Below the pieces are notes generated by a model, which was not told the DNA's origin, did no database searches, and saw only the letters and a program-made list of their open reading frames with translations. The translations under genes and the position numbers were made by a program. A DNA stretch of 64,000 nt from a virus. Taxonomy: Duplodnaviria > Caudoviricetes. Location: the IMG/VR virus record IMGVR_UViG_3300032007_000027; one strand, given 5' to 3'. This document shows positions 12,705 through 62,754 of the stretch, piece by piece. Position 1 is the stretch's first letter. Each line of letters starts with the position of its first letter.

Positions 12705-12799
12705 AGTTGTTCCTTTTTATAATGCTGCAGTATTATTAACTATTTATATTTATATTCAAAAAATATTAAAAAGTTCTTGATTTTTAGTGAAATCTTTAA

Positions 12800-13235
12800 A
12801 AAGTGGCTCAAAGTGCATATAAACTATTTAAGATTTGTAAAAGTTTATTGCATGTTTGAGGGGGTTTCCAGTAGTTCTTTACCGACCTTTAGACTATAAA
12901 ACCCCCTCAAAGTGTGCATAAACTATTTCAGTTTGCCAATAGTTTATTAGCAGTTTGGGGACTTTTGATTACTTTTTAACCGTTTGCAAGGTACTAGAAC
13001 ACGGTTCTTGATGGTTACAGAATCCTAAAAACATGCTCAAAGTGTGCATAAACTATTTCAGTTTGCCAATAGTTTATTAGCAGTTTGGGGACTTTTGATT
13101 ACTTTTTAACCAACTGTATGAACATAGAGCAAGGCTCTGAACTGTTGCAGAATCCTAAAAACATGCTCAAAGTATCAATAAACTATTGGCATTTGCCAAT
13201 AGTTTATTGCATGCTTGGGGACTGTTTGGGGGTGG
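12800..13235 (-). repeat. Intergenic repeat array B (4 cores), inverted relative to A
   Basis: Same ATAAAC-N18-GTTTAT units; ~75 bp exact direct repeat at ~12906 and ~13036. Confidence 0.85.
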
Positions 13236-13314
13236 GTAATGATTATTTGAAACTTGTTGAAGAACAACTGCATTTAAAAAAATCTGTGACATTTGTCACA
13301 GATTATAAAGAATC

Positions 13315-13590: not shown

Positions 13591-13737
13591 TTTCTCAATC
13601 CTCTCATTCGTTTCGATGTATATATAATACTATAAAATAAATAAAAAATCTGTGACAAATGTCACAGATTTTGAGATTGATTGAAAATAAATGATTAAAA
13701 CGCATGTCTTTCAAATCTTTTAATAAATCTAAGATTT

Positions 13738-28607: not shown

Positions 28608-28737
28608 TAAAAATTCCTAAAAATATTAATTATTAATATATATTATATATATAAAACTATAAAAATAAAATTTTCTATTAAAAAATATCTGTTTTCAAGT
28701 ACATTTCAGTGGGGAAAAGTGGGTTTAAGTGGAAAAC

Positions 28738-29060
28738 TGCTCAAAATGGCAATAAACTTTTGAGGTTTTGAAATAGTTTATTGCTAGTTTGAGGGGGTTT
28801 CTAGGGTTTTAACTGCATAGAGCAAGGCTCTTTAGTCTTAAAGAACCACAAAAAGTTCTGAAACATGCTCAAAGTGTTAATAAACTTTTGAGGTTTTGGA
28901 ATAGTTTATTGCTAGTTTGAGGGGGTTTTTGAATGATTTTAACCACTTGTAAGATACTAGAACATGGTTCTTGATGGTTACAGACCTTAAAAGTGGCTCA
29001 AAATAGCGATAAACTATTTAAGAATCGCAAAGGTTTATTGCATGTTTGGGGGTGTTTTTG
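28738..29060 (-). repeat. Intergenic repeat array C (3 cores)
   Basis: GCTCAAA..ATAAAC-N18-GTTTATTGC..GTTTGAGGG units. Confidence 0.85.
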
Positions 29061-36530: not shown

Positions 36531-37193
36531 ATGCTTAGAAGAACCCCAAGATTTTTAAGAGAATCAAAACGTACAGCACAGCCTAAAAATGCAAGAGGAT
36601 TGAGAAGAATCATTTTAAATACTATTAAAAAAGAAGGTCCAGAATGTGATTTAAACTTCATTGATACATCTCTTGTTACGGATATGAGTTATCTCTTTTA
36701 TGATATAGATGATTTTAATTGTGATATTAGCGAATGGGATGTTTCAAATGTTAAAGATATGAATCATATGTTTGACAATGCAGATTCATTTAATGGTGAT
36801 ATCAGCAAGTGGGATGTTTCAAACGTTAGAGATATGAGTTACATGTTTTATGGTGCAAAATCTTTCAATCAACCTTTAAATGATTGGGATGTTTCAAACG
36901 TTAGAGATATGAGTTATATGTTTGACGGTGCAAAATCTTTCAATCAACCTTTAAATGATTGGGATGTTTCAAACGTTAGAGATATGAGTTATATGTTTTG
37001 TGATGCACGTTCATTTAATCAACCTTTAAATGATTGGGATGTTTCAAATACTATAGAGAAAAATAGTACAATACATATGATTAATATGTTCCTCGGTGCA
37101 AAATCTTTCAAGCAGTCGTTAGATGACTGGGCAATTTATAAAGAAGTTGAAGGTGCATCCACATGGAGCATAGATAGAATTCTTTCATTATAG
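36531..37193 (+). CDS. DUF285/BspA-like repeat protein with Arg-rich leader
   Basis: WDVSNV.DMSYMF..A.SFNQPL 25-aa repeats; start MLRRTPRFLRES. Confidence 0.9.
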   Translation: MLRRTPRFLRESKRTAQPKNARGLRRIILNTIKKEGPECDLNFIDTSLVTDMSYLFYDIDDFNCDISEWDVSNVKDMNHMFDNADSFNGDISKWDVSNVRDMSYMFYGAKSFNQPLNDWDVSNVRDMSYMFDGAKSFNQPLNDWDVSNVRDMSYMFCDARSFNQPLNDWDVSNTIEKNSTIHMINMFLGAKSFKQSLDDWAIYKEVEGASTWSIDRILSL

Positions 37194-37198
37194 TATTA

Positions 37199-37500
37199 GT
37201 AACTGTCTATAAATAACTTGTTCATAACAAGTAAATTATAGCTTTTGCATAGTCTAAGTGATTTCATTGAAAGATGAATGAACTACGTTATGAGAGAATG
37301 ATTTTATGAAAATAAAATTAAATAGTTACCTTCGGATGTTCATCTAGTCTGAAGCTCTAAGGTGTATGATTAAACAGTCGGTATTGCTGACAGTGTTGTA
37401 CACAACAAACCTCTCAATAACTTTGACGAAGGTGTTTTAACCAGTTTTGTAGTATCTGAATGTGTGCCAATTTAAAAACTACAACCCTTTTAATAAGGAA
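37199..37500 (+). ncRNA. IscB omegaRNA (HEARO-like)
   Basis: TAGTCTAAG..CTACGTT..ACCTTCGGATG..CTAGTCTGAAGCTCT..TTAAACAG..AACTTTGACGAAGG motifs upstream of iscB. Confidence 0.85.
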
Positions 37501-37506
37501 ATTTTA

Positions 37507-38751
37507 ATGGATTATATTGTATATGTAATAAGTAAAGATGGTAAACCACTTATGCCGATTACTCGGCGTGGTAAGGTAAGACATTTATTGCGTGATAAAG
37601 CCGCAAAAATCGTTAATTATCGACCTTTTACTATTCAATTAACAACGGAGACACGACATGAAGTAGATGAGGTTACTTTAGGTATTGATACTGGATATAT
37701 GCATGTTGGATTATCAGCTACAACAAAAAATCATGTTCTTTATGAAAGTAAAAATGAATTAAGGAATGATTTAGTTCAAAACATAAAAGCTAAAAAACGT
37801 GCTAGAGTGTTTAGACGTTCAAGAAAATTAAGATATAGAAAACCTAGATTCTTAAATCGTAAACGTCATAAAGGATGGTTGCCGCCATCAATTAAAAGTC
37901 GTTTAGATTGCCATTTGAATTTGGTTGCAAAAGTACACAAGATTTTGCCGATTAGCAAAGTTGTTGTAGAAGTTGCAAAATTTGATATTCAGAAAATAAA
38001 AAATCCTGATATAAAAGGTGTTGAATATCAACAAGGGGAACAATTAGGTTTCTGGAATGTACGTGAATACGTTTTAGATAGAGATAATCATACATGTCAA
38101 TGCTGTAAAGGAAAATCGGGAAGTGATATATTAGAAACTCATCATATAACCCCAAGGAAAAATGGTGGTTCTAATGCACCTAGCAATTTAGTTACTTTAT
38201 GTAAACCATGTCATGACGATCTTCATGCACATAATAAAACTTTAAATATTGAAATAGATAATACATCATATAAAGCTGAAACTTTTATGAGTATTTTAAG
38301 AAAGTATCTAGTTATAGGACTTAGAGAAAAGTATGATAATGTAAAATGCACTTATGGTTTTATAACTAAATATACAAGGATTAAAAATCACTTAGAGAAA
38401 GATCATAATATCGATGCTAGATGTATTTCGGGGAATCCATTGGCAAAGCCAAATGGCGAAGTTTATATAGTTAAAAAAGTAAGATGTCATAACAGACAGT
38501 TACATAAGTTTAAAACATCAAAAGGTGGAAAAAGAAAGGTTAATCAATCACCTTATATAGTACATGGGTATAGACTGTTTGACACTGTTATTTTTAATGG
38601 TAAAATATGTTTTGTTTATAGTAGAAGAACAAGTGGTTCTTTCCTTATTAAAGATATTGATGGTAATACAATTTCCGAAAATATTACTTATAAAAAGTTA
38701 AAACTCGTTGAAAAACGAAAAGGGTGGATTTTTGATGTCAAAAAATCTTAA
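37507..38751 (+). CDS. iscB: IscB RNA-guided endonuclease
   Basis: PLMP, RuvC-I GIDTG, bridge helix, RuvC-II VVEVAKFD, HNH, RuvC-III DHNIDA all intact. Confidence 0.95.
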   Translation: MDYIVYVISKDGKPLMPITRRGKVRHLLRDKAAKIVNYRPFTIQLTTETRHEVDEVTLGIDTGYMHVGLSATTKNHVLYESKNELRNDLVQNIKAKKRARVFRRSRKLRYRKPRFLNRKRHKGWLPPSIKSRLDCHLNLVAKVHKILPISKVVVEVAKFDIQKIKNPDIKGVEYQQGEQLGFWNVREYVLDRDNHTCQCCKGKSGSDILETHHITPRKNGGSNAPSNLVTLCKPCHDDLHAHNKTLNIEIDNTSYKAETFMSILRKYLVIGLREKYDNVKCTYGFITKYTRIKNHLEKDHNIDARCISGNPLAKPNGEVYIVKKVRCHNRQLHKFKTSKGGKRKVNQSPYIVHGYRLFDTVIFNGKICFVYSRRTSGSFLIKDIDGNTISENITYKKLKLVEKRKGWIFDVKKS

Positions 38752-38943
38752 GTTATGAACAAGTTATTTATAGACTATTCCTTATGTTCATAAAGATTAA
38801 ATTTTAACAAATATTTTAACTCAATTTCAAAATCTGTGTTCTTGAACACAGATTTTTCATTATTTTTGATGTATAAATATAAATACAATAAAGTGAACAC
38901 TTCCCCAAGGTGGGGTGTGATAGATTAAAAGGAAAAATTTAAA

Positions 38944-39492
38944 ATGCTCAGAAGAAGAACCCCAAGATCCTTAAGAGAACGTATGAACGAAAGCAGATTT
39001 GATAATTACAGAAACCGCAGACGCATCTATGAGTCATCTGAGGTTGATGATTTCATTGAAGATATTGAAAAATCATACAAAAAGTATTTCCCTAAATCAT
39101 TAATAAATATACGCAAAACAGACATTCTTGGTAGTAAAGATATAACTGTTGCTTGCTATCTTGCAAAAGATGAATCAGAAGTTCCGCATAGGATTCTTGA
39201 TAATGATACATTCCATATAAAGTTTTGCATTGAAAATTTAAAAAATTTTAATGATTTACCAGATGTTATGATGTTAGAATGGTATCATAAGTCAATTATG
39301 TTAAAGCCATCTGATGATTTCTATTATTGTGATTTTAAACAGTTGCCGTTCAGAAAAACTAAAGGTGATGCAGTTAAGATTCTCAAAACTCTCGATAGAT
39401 ATTTCAAGTTGTTGAAAGATACTTTAATCAAAGAACTTGAAAACGATAATATACATGATGATCGTATTGATATAGTAAAATCAAAAATCTAA
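38944..39492 (+). CDS. Putative internal protein
   Basis: MLRRRTPRSLRERMNES...IYES leader; late promoter. Confidence 0.65.
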   Translation: MLRRRTPRSLRERMNESRFDNYRNRRRIYESSEVDDFIEDIEKSYKKYFPKSLINIRKTDILGSKDITVACYLAKDESEVPHRILDNDTFHIKFCIENLKNFNDLPDVMMLEWYHKSIMLKPSDDFYYCDFKQLPFRKTKGDAVKILKTLDRYFKLLKDTLIKELENDNIHDDRIDIVKSKI

Positions 39493-39612
39493 AATATTTT
39501 TAACTCAATTTCAAAATCTGTGTTCTAGGACACGGATTTTTTATTATTTTTGATGTATAAATATAAATAATAAAAACATTCATCGCTATTGATTAATTAA
39601 AAGGAAAAATTT

Positions 39613-40197
39613 ATGTTACGTAAAAGAAACCCTCGCAGAATTTGCGAATCTGAAAAGTTGTACTACTGTGTGAATAGATACGAAACCCGCAATCGTATTA
39701 AAGAATATGATCTGCTTGATGCTATTGAAAAACACAAAGCATGTGATAACGGTTCAAGCAGTGTAACTGTTGAAGAAGGCAACGTTAAAAGTTTAAATAG
39801 ACTTATCAATGGTTTCAAAAAGCAGTATTCGTCTGAATATGAAAAAGGCACTTTGTACGAGTATGAACTTGATATTTTCACTCTTGATGAAAATGACGAA
39901 CCCGATGAGTGCATTGAAACATATCTTTCAGATTTCAAAGTTGAAAATCTTCCTGATTCTTGCATCGTTGAATTGATGCTCCGTGACAGAAAGATTTCAA
40001 ATGTTTATGACAGATATGATTTAGAAACCGATTTAAACATCGAATATCCAGACGGACTTCCTCAGAAAATTGAGGATGAGTTCGATGATAATCCTGATGC
40101 TGAATACTTCTACTATGATGGACGCAGAATTCAGGCAATCGATGATGTTTATGATTATTATGTTAACTTTGCCGGAAGTCCGGTTATTAAACTGTAA
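39613..40197 (+). CDS. Putative internal protein
   Basis: MLRKRNPRRICES leader; late promoter. Confidence 0.65.
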   Translation: MLRKRNPRRICESEKLYYCVNRYETRNRIKEYDLLDAIEKHKACDNGSSSVTVEEGNVKSLNRLINGFKKQYSSEYEKGTLYEYELDIFTLDENDEPDECIETYLSDFKVENLPDSCIVELMLRDRKISNVYDRYDLETDLNIEYPDGLPQKIEDEFDDNPDAEYFYYDGRRIQAIDDVYDYYVNFAGSPVIKL

Positions 40198-40299
40198 ACA
40201 AATTTTTAATTTGAATTAAAAAATCTGTGACGTATGCCACAGATTTTAATATTATAGTAATATATAATAAAAGCATTAAACAACATTGAAGGAACAATC

Positions 40300-40929
40300 A
40301 TGTATAGACGGATTTATGAAAGCAACACCATAGCAGAATATTTGAAAGATCATGGGTACAATAGAACAAAAGTAACCGTTCGCAAAAAAGGCGATGCTTA
40401 TTATTGCACCATTAAAGATATCAATATTGAAGAAAAAACAATTATTGATTTAGTGAAACGTTTTGAAAAAATTCACTATGATGAATATTCCGGTGAAATT
40501 TTAAGCGGTGGCAATACATATGTATTCGTTGATTATGATGATAAACTCATTGACAAAATATATGACAAATATGGTGATAAGGCTCTTAAAGCTATCAAAT
40601 CAGCATTAAAGAACTTAGGACATTATGTTTCAGTTGGTGATGGTTTAGAGATTGCATATCCTATAGATCCAAAGCTTGAAAGACTTGATGCAGATGATGT
40701 ACATTTAGGAACTGTATATGGTCGTGGCACTTTAGCCAATAATTATTTGATGAAATATAAAGGCAAAGAAAAAGACCTAAATTCCGGTCTAAATGATGAA
40801 TTGCCTATTTTAATGGCTAAACTCGGTATCAGTGAAAAGAGATTTTCAAGGGAATCAACGAGTTTAACTGAAAGCCGTTCACGCAGATTGTGTCGTAATC
40901 CACGTATTTCAAGAAGAATTGATAGATAA
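40300..40929 (+). CDS. Putative internal protein with shared Arg-rich C-terminal tag
   Basis: MYRRIYES leader; C-terminus nearly identical to that of 7369..8019. Confidence 0.65.
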   Translation: MYRRIYESNTIAEYLKDHGYNRTKVTVRKKGDAYYCTIKDINIEEKTIIDLVKRFEKIHYDEYSGEILSGGNTYVFVDYDDKLIDKIYDKYGDKALKAIKSALKNLGHYVSVGDGLEIAYPIDPKLERLDADDVHLGTVYGRGTLANNYLMKYKGKEKDLNSGLNDELPILMAKLGISEKRFSRESTSLTESRSRRLCRNPRISRRIDR

Positions 40930-41171
40930 TTTATCATTTTAAAGCATGATATTGTCCTCAAATCTGTGTTGAAAAACACAGATTTTTATTTTCTATTAAA
41001 AATCCATGTTAAAAATTATTTTTATATATTATATATATAATATATTAATAAAAATAATAAAAATCATTCTTAAATCATCATTTTTGGCTAAAAACCGGAA
41101 TTTTAATGTGTTTTTAATGCTAGAAAGGCATTTAATATATCAAAATTGAGTGAAAATACGGATTTTTAATG
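40832..41171 (+). repeat. Inverted copy of 7117-7466
   Basis: Direct sequence comparison. Confidence 0.9.
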
Positions 41172-41299
41172 TGTTTTTAATGCAGATATCAATGAGAGTA
41201 GTTCAACTATGACTGAACTTCTTAAAAATGCCATTGAGTCATTCAATTTCACAAATTTAGATAAAATCTGTGACGTATGCCACAGATTTTATTTTTCAA

Positions 41300-41555
41300 T
41301 TATTTAGAAGTCTGTTCCAAGGCTTTCAAACGTTCTTCAAGTTTGTTTAAACTTTCAGTGTATTGCTGCATTTGCTGTTTGAGCCGTGCGTTTTCTCTGC
41401 GGAGATATGCACATTCAATCGCATAAACTTCTGTGTATCTTAGGCTGTAATGTTCAGATGCATCTCTTATGACTTTTGTTTCTTTAGTTGTTGTTCCATC
41501 ATCTTGAGTTACTTCGACTTCTTCTGTCCTTTCAGGGTATTCTTTATAAAGAAAA
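41300..41555 (-). pseudogene. Startless C-terminal remnant of a tail spike/fibre intramolecular chaperone (S74-like)
   Basis: Translates EYPERTEEV...HYSLRYTEVYAIECAYLRRENARLK...LEERLKALE*; cut at a 17-bp inverted repeat. Confidence 0.7.
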
Positions 41556-49548: not shown

Positions 49549-52377
49549 GTGCATATGCAAGTTATCAAACGTGACGGCTCATTACAGGAATTCAATGAGG
49601 ATAAAATCCTTAATGCAATTTCCGAAGCTATGAAATCTGTTAATGCTTTTAATCTGTTAAAAGCAAATGAAATTACAGAAAGAGTTATAGCAAAGATTTT
49701 AAAGAACAATAACAACATCGGTGTTGAAGATATACAGGATTTAGTTGAAAAAGAACTTATGCGTTCTTGCAAGGATGCTGCAAAGTCTTTTATCATCTAT
49801 AGAAAAGAGCATGAAAAAATCCGTGAATCAAAAACAAATCTGTATAAAAATCTTAATCAGATTTTGCATCTCGATGCTAAAGAAAGCGATTTGATGCGAG
49901 AGAATGCAAATATTGATGGTAATGCACCAATGGGGATAATGCTCAGAATAGGCTCAGAAACTTCAAAGGACTATTATAAAAAATATGTTCTTGAACCAAA
50001 GGCATCTGAAGCCCACTCAAACGGTGATATCCATATTCATGATTTAGATTTTTATGCAAAAACCAATAACTGTATGCATATAGATCTAGGTCCGCTGTTA
50101 AAGAACGGTTTCAGTACCGGCTATGGTGTAAACACCGAACCTCAGAGCATCGAAACAGCATCCGCACTTGCATGTATCATTCTGCAATCTAATCAGAATG
50201 ACATGCACGGCGGTCAAGGCTTGCCGATTTTTGAATACAATCTTGCACCGTATGTATGTAAATCATTTGCTAAAAACATTATAGCAACTTTAAATACAGT
50301 ATTAAGAACTGACAATCCGTTTAAAGATGTATTCAATTTTGTTAATCAAGCATATGAAGATTCCGGCGATGGGGAATACTGCCGAACTGTAATGGATCAA
50401 AAAGGTTTACAAAAAATAGGCAACTATTTAGCAAGTTTAGTAAACAAAGATGATGTGGATTATATAATTGAACACAGTTTAAAACTCACAGATAAATGTG
50501 TTAATCAGGCTATGCAGATTGTAGTACATAATCTATGCACTATGAACAGCCGTGCAGGGTCACAGGTTCCTTTCAGTTCAATTAATTACGGTACTGGAAC
50601 AACTGAGGAATGCCGTTTAATTATTAAGAACATGTTAAAAGTAACAGAAAAAGGTCTTGGATTTGGTGAAACCCCGATATTTCCAGTGCAGATTTTCAAG
50701 ATGAAAGAAGGTGTTAATGCAAACAAGGGTGATCCGAACTATGATTTATTCCAATATGCATGTAAAGTAACAGCAAAAAGAATGTTCCCTAACTTTGCAA
50801 ATCTTGATACCCCTGATAACATTCAATACTATAAAAAAGGCAGACCGGAAACCGAATATGCTACCATGGGTATGCTTAGTAAAGGTAAGGTTGAACTGTA
50901 TATAGTTGAAATTGATGATTATATAACTCTTGATATTTCCGAGGTTTGTGATACTTTATTAACTCATTTCCCATTCACTGTAATAGATGAAGAAGTTAAA
51001 CAGTTTGATGAATATACAAGATATATCGAGATTGACGGTATTGAAATCTTTGATACGATTTCATACAAATGGGTTAAAGTTAAAAAATGGATGTGCTGTG
51101 AAGATCCGAATGCTAAATGGTTGAAACTTACCTACTTAGATAAAAATAATGAGTATTCAATAATTGCAACGGACGATCACCCGTTGCCGGTAGTAAGAAA
51201 CAATAAAATTAAAAGATGCCTTTTAAAAGACGTTAAAACCACCGATTTTCTTGTTTCTACCGAACTGTTTGAACAAACCTATATGGAGATTAAGGATATC
51301 GAATTCGTTGAAAATACAGGCTTTACAGGCTATGATTTTGAAACTGAATCCGATAGATTTGACGTTGATAACTTTGTTTCTCATAACTGCAGAACAAGGG
51401 TAATCTCTAATGACGTTTATCCAGAAAAGGCTATTACAGTAGGACGTGGAAATCTTAGTTTTACAACTATCAATCTTCCTAGACTTGCTATTACCACTAA
51501 ACTTGAAAACAATGAGGAAGTTTGCAGCCAAGTTACAGATAACGATTTAATTGTTTTCTATAATAAACTTGATAATATCATTGATTTAATCTTTGAACAA
51601 TTGATGCAGAAGTTTGAAATTCTCGCTAAAAAGAAAGTTTATAACTTCCCATTCTTGTTCGGTCAAGGGGTTCATATTGATTCTGAATACCTAGACAATA
51701 ACGATGAAATCCGAGAAGCCATGAAACAAGGTACAATGTCAATCGGTTTTATCGGACTTGCGGAAACTTTAAAAGCTTTGACCGGTAAACATCATGGCGA
51801 AAGCGACAGTTCTTATGCATTGGGTTATGATATTATTAAACATATCAGAGCAAGAACTGATAAGGCAACTAAAGATTTAGGTTATAATTTCAGTACTTTT
51901 GCAACACCGGCAGAGGGTCTTTCATCTCGGTTTACCAAAATTGATAAACGCAAATACGGTATAATTCCGGGGGTTACAGATCGGGAATATTATACAAACT
52001 CATTCCACATTCCGGTTTACTATGATATTCTTGCATACAAGAAAATGAAACTTGAAGGACCTTTTCATCAGTTATGCAATGCCGGTGCAATCACTTATGT
52101 TGAACTTGACGGAGATTTGGTACACAATACATCGGTTATTGAAAAGCTGGTTAAATACTCAAAAGAATGTGGTATTGATTACTTTTCAATCAACCATGCG
52201 ATTGATACATGTCCTATATGCAGATATCAAGGTATTATCAACGGCAACACATGCCCTAGCTGCGGATGGGTTGAAGGTACTGAAATCAATATCTGCGATT
52301 TAAAACAGAAAGGTATAAACATTAAAAATCTTAATTTAAGATTTGAAAATGAATCAGAAAAGAAAAAATATTTTTAA
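49549..52377 (+). CDS. nrdD: Anaerobic ribonucleoside-triphosphate reductase with intein
   Basis: ATP cone, IHIHDLDF, QN...GGQ, RAG.Q.PFSS, MG|intein|CRT, TPAEGL, YTNSFH. Confidence 0.95.
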   Translation: MHMQVIKRDGSLQEFNEDKILNAISEAMKSVNAFNLLKANEITERVIAKILKNNNNIGVEDIQDLVEKELMRSCKDAAKSFIIYRKEHEKIRESKTNLYKNLNQILHLDAKESDLMRENANIDGNAPMGIMLRIGSETSKDYYKKYVLEPKASEAHSNGDIHIHDLDFYAKTNNCMHIDLGPLLKNGFSTGYGVNTEPQSIETASALACIILQSNQNDMHGGQGLPIFEYNLAPYVCKSFAKNIIATLNTVLRTDNPFKDVFNFVNQAYEDSGDGEYCRTVMDQKGLQKIGNYLASLVNKDDVDYIIEHSLKLTDKCVNQAMQIVVHNLCTMNSRAGSQVPFSSINYGTGTTEECRLIIKNMLKVTEKGLGFGETPIFPVQIFKMKEGVNANKGDPNYDLFQYACKVTAKRMFPNFANLDTPDNIQYYKKGRPETEYATMGMLSKGKVELYIVEIDDYITLDISEVCDTLLTHFPFTVIDEEVKQFDEYTRYIEIDGIEIFDTISYKWVKVKKWMCCEDPNAKWLKLTYLDKNNEYSIIATDDHPLPVVRNNKIKRCLLKDVKTTDFLVSTELFEQTYMEIKDIEFVENTGFTGYDFETESDRFDVDNFVSHNCRTRVISNDVYPEKAITVGRGNLSFTTINLPRLAITTKLENNEEVCSQVTDNDLIVFYNKLDNIIDLIFEQLMQKFEILAKKKVYNFPFLFGQGVHIDSEYLDNNDEIREAMKQGTMSIGFIGLAETLKALTGKHHGESDSSYALGYDIIKHIRARTDKATKDLGYNFSTFATPAEGLSSRFTKIDKRKYGIIPGVTDREYYTNSFHIPVYYDILAYKKMKLEGPFHQLCNAGAITYVELDGDLVHNTSVIEKLVKYSKECGIDYFSINHAIDTCPICRYQGIINGNTCPSCGWVEGTEINICDLKQKGINIKNLNLRFENESEKKKYF
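50872..51387 (+). other. Mini-intein (172 aa) beginning with Met
   Basis: Interrupts MG/CRT; block B ATDDHPL, block F YDFET, terminal SHN|C. Confidence 0.85.
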
Positions 52378-52490
52378 GGTATAAATTTAAGGGTACAATT
52401 TGTTAAAAATTGTACCTTTTTATATTAAAAAGTACTTGACAAATACTAAATAATTTAGTATACTATATACAATGATTTGAGGATTGAAAT

Positions 52491-52982
52491 ATGAGTTTTA
52501 AAGATTTTCTGCTTGAAAAAGAATATCTTAATGAGATGGCAACATCATATTCGGATGATAATACTTCAATTATTGTCAATCCGGTTGATTCCGGCAATCT
52601 TTCATATTTCAAATATTGCAATACAAGTAGATACAGTTCGCAGTCTGCAATTGCAAGAATATCATTGCTTGAACCTGAATATATCTACAATCACAATGAC
52701 GGTCATGCAGTTTTACTGCTATCATCAAAAGCTAAAAAGAATTTGAATAATAAGCTGATGCAACCATCAAAAAAGTATAAAGGATATACTGTTTTTCAAG
52801 CTGTATTGATTGATTTCAATATTGAAAAGTTCGGAATATATCTTGATGATCAAATGCAAATCGATGATTACGTTTTTGGAAAACCGTTGCCATTGAATCT
52901 AAAACAGCCGGATTATACAAAATTGCCATCTGAAGATTTTGCTAAAAAGAAAATAAATAGAAAAAGAATTATTTTTATATAA
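52491..52982 (+). CDS. Hypothetical protein with capsid-targeting-like leader
   Basis: MSFKDFLLEKEYLNE; ARISL..PEY..H and QPDYTKL. Confidence 0.6.
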   Translation: MSFKDFLLEKEYLNEMATSYSDDNTSIIVNPVDSGNLSYFKYCNTSRYSSQSAIARISLLEPEYIYNHNDGHAVLLLSSKAKKNLNNKLMQPSKKYKGYTVFQAVLIDFNIEKFGIYLDDQMQIDDYVFGKPLPLNLKQPDYTKLPSEDFAKKKINRKRIIFI

Positions 52983-53028
52983 ATAATATATAAATATAAA
53001 TAAAAAATTTTAACAAAAGGATTAAAAT

Positions 53029-53652
53029 ATGCTCAAAAGACCTACAAGATTTACAAGAACCCCAAGACGTTTAAATGAGTCTAATGGGATTTATTATGAA
53101 TTTAAAATGCTTGAACAAATGGAAATCAATCCTATCACTTATTTTGACTATCCTAAGGTTGAAAAATTTGATAAAAAACTTTTGGATGGCAAAGATATTT
53201 CCAAGGAACTTGATGATTTAAATGAGAAAATCAATCGTTATGAAAAACTTGGAACACGGATTCTCAAAATAAACGCTAATCCAGAACTTGCGAGGGATGG
53301 TGAAGAAGATGCAACACGTTCTTTCATAAATGAAAGAGATTTCGTAAAAAATCTTATTGCATCAAAGAGAGTGTATGAATATTATAGCTTGCAAAATGAG
53401 ACAGTTCAAGATATAATGCACGTTATTAATCCGGGCGAACCTATGAAGTCTGCCATTAAGAAACTTGTTAAAATGACTAAAACTGTCAAAGGTATGGCTA
53501 GAACTTTCAGAACATATCAATTCTTTGATGAATATACAGAGGAAGATATTCTTGAACAGATTAAAGAATTCGATGGTGTTGTAAGACTTTGCGGCTCTAT
53601 TGACACATATGTTAAATTTGAAGATGGAAAAGCCGTAGGTGTTTACTTCTAA
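53029..53652 (+). CDS. Putative internal protein
   Basis: MLKRPTRFTRTPRRLNES leader; late promoter. Confidence 0.65.
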   Translation: MLKRPTRFTRTPRRLNESNGIYYEFKMLEQMEINPITYFDYPKVEKFDKKLLDGKDISKELDDLNEKINRYEKLGTRILKINANPELARDGEEDATRSFINERDFVKNLIASKRVYEYYSLQNETVQDIMHVINPGEPMKSAIKKLVKMTKTVKGMARTFRTYQFFDEYTEEDILEQIKEFDGVVRLCGSIDTYVKFEDGKAVGVYF

Positions 53653-53759
53653 TCTATAACTATTGCAAGAATTTCAATAAGTATATATAATAAAAGTCAC
53701 AAAAGTATTCAGCAAAAGCTGAGTATTTTGTGGCTTTGATAATTTAGAGATTTTAGAAT

Positions 53760-55115
53760 ATGTCAGAAACTATAGATACTTTTTTCAATACAAGACTTGT
53801 TAATTATGCATCTTATGATAATTTAAGAAAGATTGCATCATGTATCGATGGACTTAAAAATGCATCAAGAAAGGTGATGTATACCGTTCTTGAAAAGAAT
53901 ATTAAAGATAATGTAAAGGTATTACAGCTTGCTAATAAGTCTGCAGAGTTTGCTGATTATCTGCATGGGGATTTAAGCGGTGTATGCATTACTCTTGGAC
54001 AGGATTTCAGCGGTACTAATAATGTTCCGTTGCTTAAAAAATCCGGTAATTTCGGTACTAGAAGTATTCATGAAGCATCTGCACCTAGATATATTTTTGC
54101 AAAAGGGTCTGAACTGTTTTTTAAAATCTATTCTAAAGAAGATAATGATATTTTAGATGTTCAATATTTTGAAGGTTCTAAAATTGAACCTAGATTTTAT
54201 GTACCGGCACTTCCGATGCTTTTAATCAATGGTTCAGACGGTGTATCAATGGGTTTTGCTCAAAAGATTATGCCTAGAGATTTTAAAGATGTCAAAAAAT
54301 ATCTCATTGACCGTTTAAATGGCAAGAAAGGTAATGTAAAACTTCTTGAACCGTCAGTAAATAACTTTAATGGCACTATTATAAAGGATTTAGAAACCCC
54401 TAACAAGTATTTAGTAAGCGGTATTGTAAGAAAGATTAAAGATACAGAGTTTCTTATTGAGGAAATACCGTATACTTATGATTTAGCTGAATATTTAAAG
54501 GTTTTGAATGAACTTGAAGAAAGCAAATTTATTCAGAAGTATGCAGATGAGTCCGATGGGGAGAATTCCTTAAAATTCCGTGTTTACATATCAAGGGCGA
54601 ATCAGGAAGCATGTAACATCAAAGCCGGAGATAAGAATCCAGATTTAAGCATATTATTAAACAAGTTAAAACTTATAAAACCGATTACAGAGAATTATAC
54701 AAGTATAGATGAAAATCTTAAAATATTCCAAGCAAACAGTATAATTGAACTGTTTGACAGGTATTATGATGTAAAATTAAAATATATCGAGAAAAGAAAA
54801 AAATTTTTATTAGATCGTTATATATATAATAACAATATTAATAATTCAAAAAAGAGATTTATTGAACTGTATATAAAAGGCAAACTCAAAATCAATAATG
54901 TTAAGAAAGAAGAACTTATTGAAGAACTTGAAAAGCTAAAATTCCTTAAAATCGAGGATTCCTATGATTATCTTTTAAAAATGCCTATATACTCGCTGAC
55001 ATTTGAAAAGATTGAAGAACTTAAACAAGCTATTGAGGAACTTGAAAACAAAATAATAGAACTTAAAAATTCTACTGCAGAACAAATATGGTTGAATGAT
55101 TTGAAAAAACTGTGA
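53760..55115 (+). CDS. DNA topoisomerase II medium subunit (gp52/GyrA-like)
   Basis: DGLK...RK, YLHG, GNFG.R...ASAPRY, EP.FY.P.LP..L.NG..G..GF. Confidence 0.95.
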   Translation: MSETIDTFFNTRLVNYASYDNLRKIASCIDGLKNASRKVMYTVLEKNIKDNVKVLQLANKSAEFADYLHGDLSGVCITLGQDFSGTNNVPLLKKSGNFGTRSIHEASAPRYIFAKGSELFFKIYSKEDNDILDVQYFEGSKIEPRFYVPALPMLLINGSDGVSMGFAQKIMPRDFKDVKKYLIDRLNGKKGNVKLLEPSVNNFNGTIIKDLETPNKYLVSGIVRKIKDTEFLIEEIPYTYDLAEYLKVLNELEESKFIQKYADESDGENSLKFRVYISRANQEACNIKAGDKNPDLSILLNKLKLIKPITENYTSIDENLKIFQANSIIELFDRYYDVKLKYIEKRKKFLLDRYIYNNNINNSKKRFIELYIKGKLKINNVKKEELIEELEKLKFLKIEDSYDYLLKMPIYSLTFEKIEELKQAIEELENKIIELKNSTAEQIWLNDLKKL

Positions 55116-55172
55116 TATACTTCAAATATTTTAATATAAAGTATTGCATTTTAAAAATATATTTTATATTAT
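55111..55172 (+). promoter_or_regulatory. CRP-like box plus sigma70 promoter
   Basis: TGTGA-N6-TCAAA centred 25.5 bp upstream of TTGCAT-17-TATTAT. Confidence 0.6.
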
Positions 55173-55202
55173 AAAAATGAGTATAGAGAGAGGTTTTGAA
55201 TT

Positions 55203-55556
55203 ATGAAGTTTTCTGATTTTCCAAAAGAACAAGTGATTTTATCCGTTTACGATGCACTGGATGAATTATCTACAGATTATGATATCCATGCATACCCATA
55301 CTTTTTTGATAGATTGATGGCTGCACTTGAATACTTAGATATCAGTTCAGAAAGCATAAAGGGTTTAAATTTTGGAAATCAAGAAAGCTATTTAAATGCA
55401 GTATATGAATTGATAGATGCCCTTTGCAGCAAATATGAAAGCATCATTGATGATGTACGTCATAATCAGGAACTTGTACTGCAATACTACAAAATAGACT
55501 TGCTTGGACTTGATATTGAGTATAACGATATTGAACAGATTGAGATTGAATTATGA
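55203..55556 (+). CDS. Hypothetical protein, tandem paralog 1
   Basis: MKFSDFPKE..YDALD..YPYF..RL.AALEYL. Confidence 0.8.
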   Translation: MKFSDFPKEQVILSVYDALDELSTDYDIHAYPYFFDRLMAALEYLDISSESIKGLNFGNQESYLNAVYELIDALCSKYESIIDDVRHNQELVLQYYKIDLLGLDIEYNDIEQIEIEL

Positions 55557-55903
55557 AGTTTTCAGATTTTCCAAAAGAACATGTCATTATCAACGTGTAT
55601 GATGCATTAGATGAACTATATTTAGATTATCCGCTTAAAGTATATCCATACTTTTTTGATAGATTGAGGGCCGCACTTGAATACCTAGATATCAGTTCAG
55701 AAAGTATCAAAGGCTTGAATTCTGATAATCAGGAAAGCTATTTAGGGGCTGTATATGATTTGTTGAAAGAAGTCACTCACAGATACAAAGCAATCATCAA
55801 AGCAGTGCAAGATGATGAAAATCTTGTACTTAAATATTATACAACAAATCTTCTTGGGTTTGATACAATTTCAAATAATGAACCAGTTGAAATTGAATTA
55901 TGA
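55553..55903 (+). CDS. Hypothetical protein, tandem paralog 2
   Basis: Same motifs; ATGA coupling. Confidence 0.8.
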   Translation: MKFSDFPKEHVIINVYDALDELYLDYPLKVYPYFFDRLRAALEYLDISSESIKGLNSDNQESYLGAVYDLLKEVTHRYKAIIKAVQDDENLVLKYYTTNLLGFDTISNNEPVEIEL

Positions 55904-56374
55904 AGTTTTCAGATTTTCCAAAAGAACAAGTGATATTAGCTGTCTATGATGCACTGGATTATATATTCCATGATTGCCCGGTTCGAGCATATCCATACTT
56001 TTATGTTCGATTACGGGCTGCACTCGAATATTTAAATATCAACTCTGACAGTATCAAAGATTTGAATATGAGTAATCAAGAATACCATATATGCCAAATT
56101 CGAGATATTATGGATGAGTTTGATGACAAATATGGTGATATTCATAATTCAATCATGGGAAATGATGAGTTAAGAATGCAGTATTGGAACTGTCCTTAAA
56201 TTAAATCCAATTTTAGTAGCTTAATTAACCTTAATTTCATTGTTAAGTATAGTATAGATAATGTTTAAAAACTTTTAAGTATATCACATTTTTAAAAATA
56301 AATTTATTGACATATAAATAAAGGTGTTATATACTTCTTTTTAATATGATGGCACGTAGTTAAGTTATTGAACT

Positions 56375-57871
56375 ATGAAAAAAGTAAAAGTTAAGACAAA
56401 AAATTTAAAACAAACCAAAAAAAGACGCAAAAAGAAAAGTCATAAATATAGTTTTATGATTACTCTTAAATTTGCATATAAACTAATTTTTGGTGACAAA
56501 GAACTTTTAGAGAAGTTAAGAAAACAATTTACATCTCTTGTTCATATTTTTTATAACTTAATCGTTGATAATCCAAAAATAACATGCCGTGAAGTTAAAG
56601 AACGAATTAAAGATTATAATAATCTTGATTTAATGGATTCTATTCTTATTCAATATGCTTATGAAAAAGCATATGAAATTTATAAATGTCATAATGTTGA
56701 TAATAAAGGTGAACCAGCAGGTCATAAACTCGTTTTTGGTGAACGAAAAAACCTTATTAAAACATCTAAACACACATTATCAAAAAAAGAATTTAAAAAG
56801 CTAAGAATGATGCCTTTATATTTAGTAGGCGATGCAAATTATTTTGGTAATAGACGTGTTAGAATTAAAGATAAACGGACTCTTGAATTTGTTGTTAATC
56901 GTAAAGTAGTTTTTGTTTTTAAAGTATTTGATAAAAGATGCAGTATCTTAAATCAACTCAAGAAAAAACAAGATGCTAAACAGATCCCGATTACTTATAC
57001 TATTGGTGATGATTATATTAGTATAACATATAATCAAAAATTGCTTACAGTTCCTAAAAATCATAATCTGTTAGCAAATAGAATTATGTCAATGGATTTG
57101 AATCCTGATTATATCGGCATTACAATTTTTGATGTCGATCAAAATAGCCATATCCGAAACATTCTAAAAGCATATGTTATGGAGTGGAGTACTATAACTG
57201 AGGTTCAAAAGGAATTAAACCAACCTAGTAACTCGGAAGGCAATAAATATCTTACCAATAAGAGAAAACATGAAATTCAGGAAATTGCTAAACACATTTC
57301 AGATTTATCAGTATTTTATAAATGCAAATATATCGCAGTAGAAGATTTGGATTTTGATTCTAACTGTAAAGGTTTTAGAAACTCTAAATGGAATAGGAAT
57401 TTAGTGTTTCAATCATTATTTAAACATTCCGTTGAAAACGGTGTTACTATTTTACGTGTTAATCCGGCTTATACAAGTATCATAGGAAATATTGTCTGCA
57501 GACATAATATTCCTGATATGTGTAGAAGTGCGTATGAAATTGGTTATCGAGCAGTAAAAGGACTTCAAAATGGAAATTTCGATAAAGACTGGGTAGATAC
57601 AAATGAATATCTTCATTCCTTAGATAAGGTTAAAGACTTTATTATTAAATCGTTGGAAGAATGCGGTAATAAAGATAAAGAGATTAAAAAAGTTAGTAAA
57701 TTTACTAACTACAGACAAATAAGTATATTCATCAATGAAAACAATATACAGTATAGAGTTTCCATTGAAGAATGTCATGATAATGAAACAGTCTATAGAT
57801 TTAAAAATAAAAAATCGCTTGCTAAGATACGTTCTTACGGCGTAAGACACTATAAAAAGAAGATTGCTTGA
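56375..57871 (+). CDS. tnpB: TnpB-like RuvC nuclease lacking the Cys4 zinc finger
   Basis: SMDLNP (RuvC-I), AVEDL (RuvC-II), VNPAYTSIIG, PDM..SAYEIG (RuvC-III). Confidence 0.8.
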   Translation: MKKVKVKTKNLKQTKKRRKKKSHKYSFMITLKFAYKLIFGDKELLEKLRKQFTSLVHIFYNLIVDNPKITCREVKERIKDYNNLDLMDSILIQYAYEKAYEIYKCHNVDNKGEPAGHKLVFGERKNLIKTSKHTLSKKEFKKLRMMPLYLVGDANYFGNRRVRIKDKRTLEFVVNRKVVFVFKVFDKRCSILNQLKKKQDAKQIPITYTIGDDYISITYNQKLLTVPKNHNLLANRIMSMDLNPDYIGITIFDVDQNSHIRNILKAYVMEWSTITEVQKELNQPSNSEGNKYLTNKRKHEIQEIAKHISDLSVFYKCKYIAVEDLDFDSNCKGFRNSKWNRNLVFQSLFKHSVENGVTILRVNPAYTSIIGNIVCRHNIPDMCRSAYEIGYRAVKGLQNGNFDKDWVDTNEYLHSLDKVKDFIIKSLEECGNKDKEIKKVSKFTNYRQISIFINENNIQYRVSIEECHDNETVYRFKNKKSLAKIRSYGVRHYKKKIA

Positions 57872-58108
57872 TTCGGGGTTTGCATAGGAAGTATTGCCTT
57901 TGAATCAAGTTAGAATGCCGTAAAAAGCAATTTAACTTTAAAATAGCGATTCACTATTATAGAGTCTTAAAACAAAAAGAAATCTGAATTAGGTTAAGAT
58001 TTCCTCTTAATATGCTTATGCATGATGAGATCTTTTAGGTTGAACTACATGATGTATATCATAGTTCAAATAAGTCCCGAAAATTGGATTTAATTTAGGG
58101 ACAGTTCC
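57872..58108 (+). ncRNA. Putative TnpB omegaRNA/reRNA scaffold
   Basis: Non-coding, multi-hairpin, ends in a TIR stem; motif shared with 42540-42716. Confidence 0.65.
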
Positions 58109-58159
58109 TATTGGAAACGTGATATCCTCAAACTGCATTCTGTGAAAACGATACGTTAA

Positions 58160-59869: not shown

Positions 59870-59903
59870 GCATAATAATACTTATTATACACATGTTTTG
59901 AAA

Positions 59904-62195: not shown

Positions 62196-62326
62196 CTTGA
62201 ACCCCGTTTTTAAGTATTTTTTATTTATATTTATATAATATATATAATAATATTAATAATTTTTAATAAAATCATAGTAAAATCCGTTGAAAAACGTGTT
62301 TTTAGAGTGATTTTGGGGTGAAAAAG

Positions 62327-62567
62327 GGGATTTTAGACTGTTTTATCCATGAAAATCGGCTTAAAACAGCTTTCCGGCATTGAAAATAGGGTATTTTTAT
62401 GATTTTTTATATATTTATTATATATATAATATATAAAAATAAAAAATTTTAATGATTTTATGGTGTTTTTGATGGTAAAAATGGGATTTTAGACTGTTTT
62501 CTCCATGAAAATCGGCTAAAAACAGCTTTCCGGCATTGAAAATATGGTATTTTTAATGATTTTTTAT
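62327..62567 (+). repeat. ~85-bp direct repeat pair in an AT-rich intergenic region
   Basis: GGGATTTTAGACTGTTTT..CCATGAAAATCGGCT..AACAGCTTTCCGGCATTGAAAATA at ~62327 and ~62484. Confidence 0.85.
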
Positions 62568-62754
62568 ATTCCTCACAAAACCCCACACCTTTAGGTGTGG
62601 GGATTAAGGCAATAAAAATTAAAATTACTTGATATATAAATTTGTTTTAAAAAAGTGATATACTTCAACGTTTTAAATATTATCTACTATTCATTAACAA
62701 TGAAATTAAGGTTAACTAAGTTCCTAAAATTGGTTTTAATTTAGGGACAGTTCC
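62568..62754 (-). mobile_element. Chimeric remnant: IS200/605 end joined to a TnpB-cassette left end
   Basis: TTTAT|ATTCCTCACAAAACCCCACACC.. hairpin; ~120 bp inverted copy of 56186-56305 including the TIR. Confidence 0.75.

What the first reader, a model, noticed from the sequence alone, without database searches (positions are those of the whole stretch)
37199..58108. A TIR/TSD-type mobile element family carrying interchangeable RNA-guided cargo (IscB, TnpB, or guide RNA only)
Seen: three complete cassettes share related ~29-30 bp terminal inverted repeats starting GGAA(CT/TA)GTC, with short flanking duplications. 37199-38781 holds omegaRNA+IscB (TTA), 42281-42716 holds a promoter and RNA with no ORF (TAA), and 56186-58108 holds TnpB+RNA (TATT). 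Further ends lie at 45348 and 62754. None encodes a transposase. Established: IscB and TnpB normally travel in IS200/IS605 (HUH, hairpin ends, no TSD) or IS607 elements, whereas TIR+TSD is the signature of DDE transposition, as in eukaryotic Fanzor-carrying elements. Inference: one cut-and-paste vehicle, with GG..CTGT ends and TWA-like TSD reminiscent of IS5/PIF-Harbinger, has captured two unrelated OMEGA nucleases and uses its flank as guide to home into empty alleles of co-infecting phages.
Basis: partly seen in the sequence, partly recalled or inferred. Interest (0 to 1): 0.92.

Follow-up and report, generated by a model that had tools for sequence, protein, structure and literature searches.

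The report
IscB/TnpB riding ISAzo13-type transposons
A large phage carries several small jumping elements with the inverted-repeat ends of the little-studied ISAzo13 transposon family that hold an RNA-guided nuclease (IscB or a TnpB-like protein), or only its guide-RNA gene, instead of a transposase, which shows that bacterial viruses, like eukaryotes, have such nucleases aboard cut-and-paste-type transposons.

Summary
Three cassettes (37199-38781, 42281-42716, 56186-58108) have 29-30 bp terminal inverted repeats (TIRs) and direct flank duplications (TTA, TAA, TATT). A fourth, decayed RNA-only cassette lies at 45029-45348, and a solo end at 62754.

The ends are not IS5/Harbinger-like. They match the ISAzo13 family:
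- The same GGAACTGTC..TAAATAA(C/G)TTG ends with TWA duplications occur in 54 loci from many bacterial phyla.
- Many of these are ~157-bp miniature elements.
- Some surround intact PF07592 transposases.

No such transposase is in the window or in five related phage contigs, so I infer mobilisation in trans.

The 56186 cassette recurs at four other sites in other phage contigs, each with its own duplication. Five metagenome contigs carry the empty site with a single TATT.

Its 498-aa protein has a TnpB/Cas12f fold with an intact D-E-D triad and no zinc finger. Relatives at 37-42% identity sit between the same kind of ends, and a canonical TnpB does too.

The IscB cassette is so far unique. Both RNA-only cassettes are nuclease-deleted derivatives.

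Whether the guide comes from the flank, and whether homing occurs, is untested. TnpB in DDE transposons was published in 2023, so this is a new variant of a known kind.

The parts
37199..38781 (+). Cassette C1: a non-autonomous ISAzo13-type element carrying omegaRNA and IscB. The TTA duplication is at 37196-37198 and 38782-38784.
   Evidence: I16: 34 nt, 88% complementary
37199..37228 (+). C1 left TIR. Its inner half (37208-37222) pairs with 37226-37240 to form a hairpin where the canonical HEARO 5' stem-loop is missing.
37246..37441 (+). IscB omegaRNA scaffold (HEARO match lacking the first stem-loop of the model).
   Evidence: 71.7 bits, E 1.3e-14, below the gathering score of 83
37507..38751 (+). 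IscB, 414 aa from the in-frame ATG. The stop codon abuts the right TIR at 38752-38781.
42281..42716 (+). Cassette C2: a guide-RNA-only element. It has TIRs at 42281-42309 and 42688-42716 and a TAA duplication at 42278-42280 and 42717-42719. It is a nuclease-deleted derivative of the L118-type element.
   Evidence: (I23)
42400..42434 (+). Promoter-like site inside C2 (TTGACA-17-TAAGAT), conserved in L118 in front of the omegaRNA-like region.
42437..42716 (+). C2 omegaRNA-like region. It shares helices with the C3, L116 and L216 3' regions. Its terminal hairpin at 42682-42698 uses the inner right TIR.
42798..44840 (+). Neighbouring canonical IS200/IS605 element, not part of the TIR family (boundaries approximate). 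It comprises HEARO 42814-43033, IscB 43110-44420, Y1 TnpA 44375-44779 and a right-end hairpin at 44794-44816.
45029..45348 (-). Fourth cassette: a decayed RNA-only derivative of the canonical-TnpB element type seen intact at L010:940-2386. The left TIR at 45320-45348 is good, the right TIR at 45029-45051 is degenerate, and the flanks are TAG and TAA.
56186..58108 (+). Cassette C3: an ISAzo13-type element carrying a TnpB-like nuclease and a 3' omegaRNA-like region. The TATT duplication is at 56182-56185 and 58109-58112. The insertion replaces the last 14 residues of a 110-aa phage protein.
   Evidence: (I3)
56307..56335 (+). Promoter-like site inside C3 (TTGACA-17-TATACT, 11 of 12).
56375..57871 (+). 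TnpB-like RuvC nuclease P0001, 498 aa. D241, E323 and D381 are invariant in the family. It has no zinc finger.
57872..58108 (+). omegaRNA-like 3' region ending in the right TIR at 58080-58108. A GTCCC/GGGAC stem closes over the inner TIR.
62616..62754 (-). Solo or truncated left end of a C3-type element (TIR 62726-62754 plus leader). It is followed by an IS200/IS605 right-end-like hairpin at 62581-62602.

Best explanation
The cassettes are non-autonomous members of the ISAzo13 family of DDE insertion sequences. In place of the transposase gene they carry an OMEGA module: IscB with a 5' omegaRNA, or a TnpB-type nuclease with a 3' omegaRNA, or only the promoter and omegaRNA.

They reside in a T4-like or jumbo phage.

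Shown here:
- The ends and the TWA duplications are those of ISAzo13 elements.
- Intact elements with a PF07592 transposase have the same kind of ends.
- The C3 unit has inserted at five or more different phage sites.
- A natural empty allele of the C3 site exists.

Inferred:
- An ISAzo13 transposase supplied in trans binds the TIRs and moves the cassettes, making 3-bp (once 4-bp) duplications. That transposase would come from the host or from an unsampled part of the phage genome.
- The omegaRNA incorporates the adjacent TIR as a terminal stem-loop.
- The guide is most likely read from the DNA just outside that end, as in Fanzor-carrying eukaryotic transposons. The nuclease could then cut alleles lacking the element and favour its copying by recombination during co-infection. 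This last step is the least certain, about 1 in 3.
For: 1. Ends and duplications are real and non-random.

2. A scan of 185,579 species genomes for GGAACTGTCNNTAAATAASTTG gave 54 loci across Clostridia, Deltaproteobacteria, Bacteroidota, Spirochaetes, Synergistetes and others. Nearly all are flanked by TAA or TTA, and many are ~157-bp paired-end miniature elements.

3. L055:2464-3749 has the same ends around a frameshifted PF07592 transposase (E 2e-52 and 6e-35).

4. Intact ~1.3-kb elements have related GGAAC... ends around a PF07592 ORF:
- L100:1167-2462 has a 397-aa open frame, E 2.7e-134.
- L101:1468-2777 has a TAA duplication.
- L102:1125-2461 has a TTA duplication.

5. The literature reports 3-bp duplications for ISAzo13 and its eukaryotic relative Zator (PMC10045372).

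6. C3-type copies are 87-96% identical to the window's copy. They sit in four IMG/VR contigs that show no other DNA similarity to the window apart from ~130-bp repeat arrays. Their duplications are TAA, TTA and TTA.

7. Five contigs (L220-L224) carry the empty site ...ATGCAG-TATT-GGAAAC.... Their flanks are 92.5% and 95% identical to the window, and the 110-aa ORF is restored.

8. P0001 has a TnpB/Cas12f fold. The model has pLDDT 89, and Foldseek top hits are Cas12f, TnpB, Cas12k and Fanzor2 at E about 1e-10.

9. Relatives of P0001 keep the same kind of ends:
- At 42% identity, L116:1140-3156, duplication TTA.
- At 39% identity, L216:1080-2822, duplication TTA.
- At 37% identity, L118 keeps the matching left end; its contig stops before the right end.

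10. A canonical TnpB sits between such ends at L010:940-2386, duplication TAA.

11. The RNA-only cassettes align end to end with nuclease-bearing elements minus the ORF.

12. The TIR is embedded in RNA structure: the C1 hairpin and the stem over the right TIR, with a compensatory change in L216.
Against: - No PF07592 transposase is present in the 64-kb window (tblastn, best E 1.0). None is in five related viral records either, although those are only 15-39% complete, except one small provirus. The mobilising enzyme is therefore not identified, and no transposition was observed.
- C3 has a 4-bp TATT duplication rather than TWA.
- C1 is a single copy. None of 95 IscB relatives at 47-58% identity has such ends. 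Both C1 ends deviate from the consensus in the terminal 9 nt, so C1 may be immobile.
- If the TAM were only the duplicated TWA, a flank-derived guide would also match the occupied allele. The guide position is unknown.
- Promoter-like sites are not more frequent than in shuffled sequence.
Confidence: 0.78

Rival explanations
1. Nested origin without joint mobility, applying mainly to C1. An ISAzo13 miniature element landed here first. An IS200/IS605-type IscB unit later inserted into it and lost its hairpin ends. On this reading the TIRs and the TTA duplication date from the miniature element, and the IscB never travelled between these TIRs.
For: - C1 is unique so far. Its 15 viral and 80 metagenomic IscB relatives lack such ends.
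- An active-looking IS200/IS605 IscB-TnpA element lies 4 kb away.
- Both C1 ends carry changes in the terminal 9 nt.
Against: - No IS200/IS605 hairpins remain in C1.
- The HEARO 5' stem-loop is replaced exactly by a TIR-based hairpin, and the stop codon abuts the right TIR. This packing is hard to obtain by a simple nested insertion.
- The two IscBs in the window are only 36% identical.
- For the TnpB cassettes, joint mobility is directly shown.
Confidence: 0.12
2. The cassettes are moved by the Y1 (HUH) transposase of the neighbouring IS200/IS605 element or by a RAYT-like enzyme, as ordinary OMEGA elements are.
For: A Y1 TnpA gene is present at 44375-44779, and IS200/IS605 end-like hairpins occur near two TIR ends at 44794 and 62581.
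Against: - The cassettes have long terminal inverted repeats and variable direct duplications (TTA, TAA, TATT). They lack subterminal hairpins of the CCCCAC type inside their ends.
- IS200/IS605 elements have no TIRs and make no duplications (PMC13565253).
- The same ends surround DDE transposases elsewhere.
Confidence: 0.03
3. The vehicle is an IS5/PIF-Harbinger-type element, or another DDE family that merely shares a TWA target.
For: The TWA duplication and the GG start are also found in some IS5-group and Harbinger elements (general knowledge, not tested here).
Against: The 22-nt end consensus retrieved elements whose only transposase is PF07592 (ISAzo13 family). No IS4 or IS5 transposase was seen between such ends.
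Confidence: 0.03
4. The spread among phages is due to nuclease-driven homing or plain recombination only, and transposition plays no current role. On this reading the TIRs are relics.
For: - No transposase was found in any of the phage contigs.
- The elements sit right after or at the 3' ends of genes, as free-standing homing genes often do.
Against: - The five C3-type sites are non-homologous, and each has its own short duplication.
- The ends stay conserved between cargo proteins that have diverged to 39-42% identity. This argues for continued selection by a TIR-binding enzyme.
Confidence: 0.04

Closest known systems
DDE-transposon-associated TnpBs of prokaryotes (branches DDE-1 to DDE-6 of Altae-Tran et al. 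2023, PMC10691335; the review PMC13565253 names them ISL2, IS630 and IS1031)
   Same: - TnpB lies between symmetrical inverted terminal repeats.
- The TnpB 3' end is within 250 bp of the transposon end.
- Solo TnpBs occur between ends like those of transposase-bearing copies.
   Different: - The vehicle here is ISAzo13 (PF07592), which neither paper's text names.
- The cargo includes an IscB and RNA-only derivatives.
- No copy carrying both transposase and nuclease was found.
- The setting is phage genomes.
Fanzor/HERMES in eukaryotic DNA transposons
   Same: - An RNA-guided TnpB-type nuclease is carried as cargo of TIR/TSD transposons.
- The guide RNA overlaps the TIR and extends into the flank.
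- TAM preference is reported to match the insertion site (PMC10312701).
   Different: - Here the element is prokaryotic and phage-borne, with bacterial-type promoters.
- The RNA ends and the TAM are not measured here.
- No paper in the library links Fanzor to Zator, the eukaryotic relative of ISAzo13.
ISAzo13-family insertion sequences and their miniature (MITE) derivatives
   Same: - End sequence GGAACTGTC..TAAATAA..
- TWA 3-bp duplication.
- Non-autonomous copies are mobilised in trans (3-bp duplication per PMC10045372).
   Different: - Ordinary members carry only a ~400-aa DDE transposase or nothing.
- These carry OMEGA nuclease modules of three unrelated lineages.
IS200/IS605 (ISC) IscB elements and IS1341-type solo TnpB elements, and their gene-less PATE derivatives
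   Same: - The same nuclease and omegaRNA modules.
- Nuclease-less, RNA-bearing or gene-less derivatives exist.
- A genuine example sits in the window at about 42800-44840.
   Different: - IS200/IS605 elements have hairpin ends, no TIRs and no duplications, and use a Y1 transposase.
- The cassettes fail these features.

Membership tests
ISAzo13 family (DDE insertion sequences) | Terminal inverted repeats of the family type (about 20-30 bp, starting GGAAC) | tested here: met
   The window ends match the 22-nt consensus. That consensus retrieves PF07592-bearing elements and their miniature derivatives.
ISAzo13 family (DDE insertion sequences) | 3-bp target-site duplication (PMC10045372) | tested here: met
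   The duplication is TTA or TAA at C1, C2, L027, L001/L011, L015/L005, L116, L216 and L010. C3 is the exception, with 4-bp TATT, verified against the empty allele.
ISAzo13 family (DDE insertion sequences) | Encodes a PF07592 (DDE_Tnp_ISAZ013) transposase | tested here: not met
   There is none in the cassettes, the window or five related viral records. The cassettes therefore qualify only as non-autonomous derivatives.
ISAzo13 family (DDE insertion sequences) | Mobilised by that transposase | not testable with these tools
   Needs a transposition assay.
IS200/IS605 (including ISC and IS1341 groups) | Subterminal hairpin ends, no TIRs, no target duplication, Y1 TnpA | tested here: not met
   - The cassettes have TIRs and duplications.
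- The HEARO 5' stem-loop that holds the left-end hairpin is missing in C1.
- All these features are met by the separate element at about 42800-44840.
IscB (OMEGA) | RuvC with inserted HNH, N-terminal PLMP/RRXRR region, upstream HEARO-type omegaRNA | tested here: met
   - NCBIfam guided_IscB scores 351 bits against a cut-off of 175.
- Pfam gives RRXRR plus HNH.
- HEARO scores 71.7 bits, below the gathering score of 83, with the 5' stem-loop absent.
TnpB / Cas12f-like RuvC nucleases | TnpB fold (WED, REC, split RuvC) with a D-E-D triad | tested here: met
   - The AF2 model has pLDDT 89.
- Foldseek gives probability 1.0 to Cas12f, TnpB, Cas12k and Fanzor2.
- D241, E323 and D381 are invariant in 48 relatives.
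TnpB / Cas12f-like RuvC nucleases | Sequence-profile membership (Pfam OrfB_IS605, TNB zinc finger) | tested here: not met
   - None of 48 family members has a Pfam hit.
- TIGR01766 reaches only E 0.039.
- No CxxC pairs lie between RuvC-II and RuvC-III.
TnpB / Cas12f-like RuvC nucleases | RNA-guided DNA cleavage with a guide next to the transposon end | not testable with these tools
   Only a conserved 3' RNA-like structure is seen.
   Every transposase found between ends of this consensus was PF07592.

The most novel reading that the evidence does not exclude
A DDE-type (ISAzo13) transposon has been turned into a shared chassis for RNA-guided nucleases in phages.
- The TIR next to the omegaRNA doubles as the last stem-loop of the guide RNA scaffold.
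- The guide is read from the flank.
- The nuclease cuts element-free alleles of co-infecting phages, so that the cassette is copied in (non-restorative homing).
- The recurrent nuclease-less cassettes that keep promoter, omegaRNA and TIRs are hyperparasites or extra guides. They would use a nuclease supplied in trans.
- The chassis has captured IscB as well as two TnpB lineages. Exchange of OMEGA modules between Y1-type and DDE-type transposons would then be ongoing in phages.
Probability: 0.3. Interest if true: 0.82.

Novelty: new variant of a known kind. Interest (0 to 1): 0.62.

Why it matters
In prokaryotes, OMEGA nucleases are textbook passengers of IS200/IS605 and IS607 elements, which excise without scars. 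Their presence in cut-and-paste TIR/TSD transposons is regarded as the eukaryotic (Fanzor) pattern. It has been reported for only a few bacterial TnpB branches.

This locus adds:
- A new vehicle family, ISAzo13, the prokaryotic relative of eukaryotic Zator.
- The first IscB that I could find between DDE-type ends.
- Three unrelated nuclease lineages on one chassis.
- Two independent nuclease-less derivatives that keep only the guide RNA gene.
- A natural pair of filled and empty phage alleles.

The filled and empty pair makes the question directly testable: does an RNA-guided nuclease help a DDE transposon, and how does it avoid cutting its own occupied site when the target duplication is present on both sides?

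The compact zinc-finger-less TnpB-like family has 669 cluster representatives and no Pfam model. It may also interest genome-editing work.

Tried and rejected
- Whole-genome search of the window's own assembly: none is held.
- megablast of 52000-60000 against GenBank phages: no match.
- The window's phage is not in IMG/VR. The topoisomerase finds only relatives at 29-30% identity.
- Sequence search of P0001 against PDB chains: only chance ribosomal-protein hits.
- Pfam on P0001 and 47 relatives: nothing relevant.
- A search pattern built from the 48-sequence alignment failed, so I used a 6-sequence alignment.
- Distant P0001 relatives at 26-34% identity (L114, L115, L217-L219) show no ISAzo13-type ends.
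- Relatives in one bacterial class are weak (E 1e-11 to 1e-21). Some have a different ~20-nt inverted repeat.
- IscB relatives with such ends: none among 95 loci.
- Lachnospiraceae genomes carrying the miniature elements show only one PF07592 fragment.
- Search for internal 'fixed guide' targets: 16-mers around the omegaRNA-side ends match only other TIRs and the empty allele.
- Rfam finds nothing for the TnpB-side RNAs or the 45029-45348 cassette.
- Exact-protein look-ups for an empty C1 site gave only the window's own contigs or no DNA.
- L012 and about 29 other viral hits to the short end pattern were chance matches inside genes.
- A composite-transposon reading (C1 left end with C2 right end, 37199-42716) was rejected, because the outer flanks differ (TTA against TAA).

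Full report
**1. Observation**

The three cassettes are as described.

- C1 (37199-38781) has 30-nt ends that differ at three of the first nine positions and are identical over the remaining 21. It is flanked by TTA on both sides.
- C2 (42281-42716) has 29-nt ends and TAA flanks.
- C3 (56186-58108) has 29-nt ends with one mismatch and TATT flanks.
- The shared 9-mer occurs 7 times against 1.1 expected.

The cargo is as follows.

- C1 encodes a bona fide IscB. The NCBIfam equivalog scores 351 bits, and Pfam gives RRXRR plus HNH.
- Upstream of it lies a HEARO-type omegaRNA at 37246-37441. It scores 71.7 bits, below Rfam's gathering score of 83, because the model's first stem-loop is absent.
- C2 has no ORF.
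- C3 encodes a 498-aa protein (P0001) with no Pfam hit.

The window is a T4-like or jumbo phage. It encodes baseplate wedge, tail, scaffold, clamp loader, RNA ligase, NrdD and topoisomerase proteins. GC content is about 31%.

**2.

Directly after C2 lies an ordinary IS200/IS605 element.

- It comprises HEARO 42814-43033 (87.9 bits), a second IscB at 43110-44420, and a Y1 TnpA at 44375-44779 (PF01797, E 1.5e-32).
- Similar CCCCAC..GTGGGG hairpins sit at both of its ends.
- The two IscBs are only 36% identical.

The end at 45348 is not a lone end.

- The minus strand of 45029-45348 aligns along its whole length with the first ~110 nt and last ~220 nt of an intact 1.45-kb element in an IMG/VR contig (L010:940-2386).
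- That element carries a canonical TnpB (Pfam OrfB_IS605 plus TNB) between the same ends, with a TAA duplication.
- The window copy is thus a nuclease-deleted, decayed cassette.

The end at 62754 is a solo left end of the C3 type.

**3. Identity of the vehicle**

A pattern common to both end types found further copies in IMG/VR. A stricter consensus, GGAACTGTCNNTAAATAASTTG, was scanned against one genome per species and gave 54 loci in many phyla.

- Almost all are preceded by TAA or TTA.
- Many are paired ends ~157 bp apart, or sit at contig ends. This is the signature of a multicopy IS with miniature derivatives.
- One pair (L055:2464-3749) encloses a frameshifted PF07592 (DDE_Tnp_ISAZ013) transposase.

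Searching genomes that hold such ends for PF07592 gave intact ~1.3-kb elements with a single ~400-aa transposase frame and related ends.

- L100:1167-2462, E 2.7e-134.
- L101:1468-2777, TAA duplication.
- L102:1125-2461, TTA duplication.

ISAzo13 and its eukaryotic relative Zator are reported to make 3-bp duplications (PMC10045372; PMC5718144). The vehicle is therefore ISAzo13-type, not IS5/Harbinger.

No PF07592 gene is in the window. None is in five related viral records either, but four of those are only 15-39% complete.

**4. The cassettes have moved as units**

C3-type elements are 87-96% identical to the window's copy.

- They occur at four sites in four IMG/VR contigs. Two of those contigs share one insertion.
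- The flanks are unrelated, and the duplications are TAA, TTA and TTA.

The phage ORF cut by C3 (99 aa) has 110-aa homologues at 90-95% identity whose C-termini match the frame that resumes after the element. Five metagenome contigs (L220-L224) carry the uninterrupted locus.

- Their gene order is topoisomerase, two small ORFs, the 110-aa ORF, then the methylase.
- The junction reads ...ATGCAG-TATT-GGAAAC..., a single TATT.
- Flank identity to the window is 92.5% on the left and 95% on the right.

This is a clean pair of filled and empty alleles with a 4-bp duplication.

**5. The cargo**

*The nuclease of C3.* P0001 has 669 cluster representatives at E of 1e-3 or better.

- D241, E323 and D381 are invariant among 48 aligned members, and there is no zinc finger.
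- With that alignment AlphaFold gives pLDDT 89 and pTM 0.83.
- Foldseek matches Cas12f, ISDra2 and ISFba1 TnpB, Cas12k and Fanzor2, with E down to 1e-10.

*Its relatives keep the same vehicle.*

- P0003, at 42% identity, lies next to a T4-type portal gene. It sits between GGATCTGTCCCTAAATTAAATCCAATTTT ends with a TTA duplication (L116).
- P0004, at 39% identity, sits between GG(A)ACTGTCTCAAAATAATTTG ends with TTA (L216).
- P0005, at 37% identity (L118), has a left end and a 3' promoter-plus-RNA region that are nearly identical to C2.

C2 is therefore that element minus its nuclease gene.

*Overall.* Three nuclease lineages use this chassis: IscB, the zinc-finger-less TnpB-like family, and canonical TnpB. 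Nuclease loss with retention of promoter, RNA and ends happened at least twice.

The IscB case is so far unique. None of 15 viral or 80 metagenomic loci with IscBs at 47-58% identity has such ends.

**6. How it may work**

*Mobility.* I infer that an ISAzo13 transposase acting in trans moves the cassettes.

*The RNA.*

- In C1, the 5' stem-loop of the HEARO model carries the IS200/IS605 left-end hairpin in the neighbouring element. In C1 it is replaced by a hairpin made of the inner left TIR and the next 15 nt.
- In the TnpB-type elements, an alignment of seven 3' regions gives shared helices with compensatory changes.
- It also gives a stem (GTCCC/GGGAC; GTCTC/GAGAC in L216) that closes over the inner right TIR. 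In C2 a different hairpin also uses the inner right TIR.

The TIR next to the omegaRNA thus seems to be built into the RNA, leaving the outermost bases and the flank single-stranded. This fits a flank-derived guide, as reported for Fanzor/HERMES RNAs that overlap the TIR (PMC10312701).

The 20 nt after C3 match the natural empty alleles at 19 positions.

*What remains unexplained.*

- It is not clear how the occupied site, which also has the duplicated TATT or TWA before the flank, would escape cutting.
- No RNA data could be obtained.

**7. Comparison with what is known**

- Altae-Tran et al. 2023 (PMC10691335) described six TnpB branches associated with DDE transposases. All have inverted terminal repeats, and solo TnpBs occur between like ends.
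- A 2026 review names the families as ISL2, IS630 and IS1031 (PMC13565253).
- ISAzo13 is not mentioned in either text. The two papers that hold both 'ISAzo13' and 'TnpB' are unrelated to such a link.
- IscB is treated only as an IS200/IS605 (ISC) passenger.

The principle is therefore known. The new parts are the vehicle family, the IscB capture, the RNA-only derivatives, the phage setting and the filled/empty allele pair.

Other first-stage notes on this same genome had already pointed out several of these features.

- They noted the TIR-based first stem of the C1 RNA, the resemblance of the C2 scaffold to the C3 RNA, and the reconstructable empty site. I checked each of these.
- They also note a further TIR-tnpB-TIR element beyond the window, which I did not check.

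**8. Verdict**

This is a new variant of a known kind, of moderate to high interest to the transposon and CRISPR-origin field.

Noticed in passing
window 3580-4012, 12773-13226, 28731-29051: Arrays of ~130-bp tandem or inverted repeat units. They are 70-85% identical to similar arrays in two IMG/VR phage contigs (L027:1150-2130, L042:4840-5820) that show no other DNA similarity to the window apart from the C3-type element.
   Followed up: no
window 44781-45023 (-) and 42717-42813: An 80-aa ORF resembling a four-helix-bundle (Avd-like) protein is cut by the right end of the IS200/IS605 element. It lies just downstream, on the minus strand, of the 1040-aa tail-fibre-like gene at 45399-48521.
   Followed up: partly
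window 62563-62615 (-) and L001:2590-2650: Copies of the IS200/IS605 right-end sequence (hairpin CCCCACACC..GGTGTGGGG followed by TTTTGTG) lie just inside ISAzo13-type ends. One is 140 nt from the 62754 end, and one directly abuts a solo right TIR in L001. Their meaning is unclear. They may reflect a preferred target, a terminator or a hybrid element.
   Followed up: partly
window 62290-62560: Two ~180-bp direct repeats, each containing GATTTTAGACTGTTTT..CCATGAAAATCGGCT..AACAGCTTTCCGGCATTGAAAATA. They lie between the solo 62754 end and the 763-aa gene (by eye).
   Followed up: no
window 38829-38856, 39513-39540, 40219-40248, 40960-40985, 41262-41290, 13279-13304, 13647-13672: A family of near-identical terminator-like hairpins (AAAATCTGTG..CACAGATTTT) follows many small genes.
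   Followed up: no
window 31440-32783 (-) and 49549-52377 (+): The clamp-loader ORF matches its PHROG only at residues 8-105 and 251-445. The 942-aa NrdD matches Pfam NRDD in two stretches. Both suggest inserted segments, such as an intein or a homing-endonuclease domain.
   Followed up: no
window 37190-37198 and L001:9674-9682: C1 and the C3-type element in contig IMGVR_UViG_3300028048_000142 share the same 9 nt (ATAGTATTA) immediately left of the element. The C3 site in the window has AGTATT. This may be chance or an extended target preference.
   Followed up: partly
L227, L236, L242, L244 (one complete bacterial genome, G121): Distant relatives of the zinc-finger-less TnpB-like family (about 500 aa) occur in several copies. 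They are flanked by a different ~20-nt inverted repeat (AAAA(C/T)CGTAACAAA..), which hints at another TIR-type vehicle.
   Followed up: no
window 37199-42716: The C1 left end and the C2 right end are 89% complementary over 36 nt (I14). They could in principle bracket a 5.5-kb composite carrying four phage genes. The outer flanks differ (TTA against TAA), so there is no sign that this has moved.
   Followed up: partly
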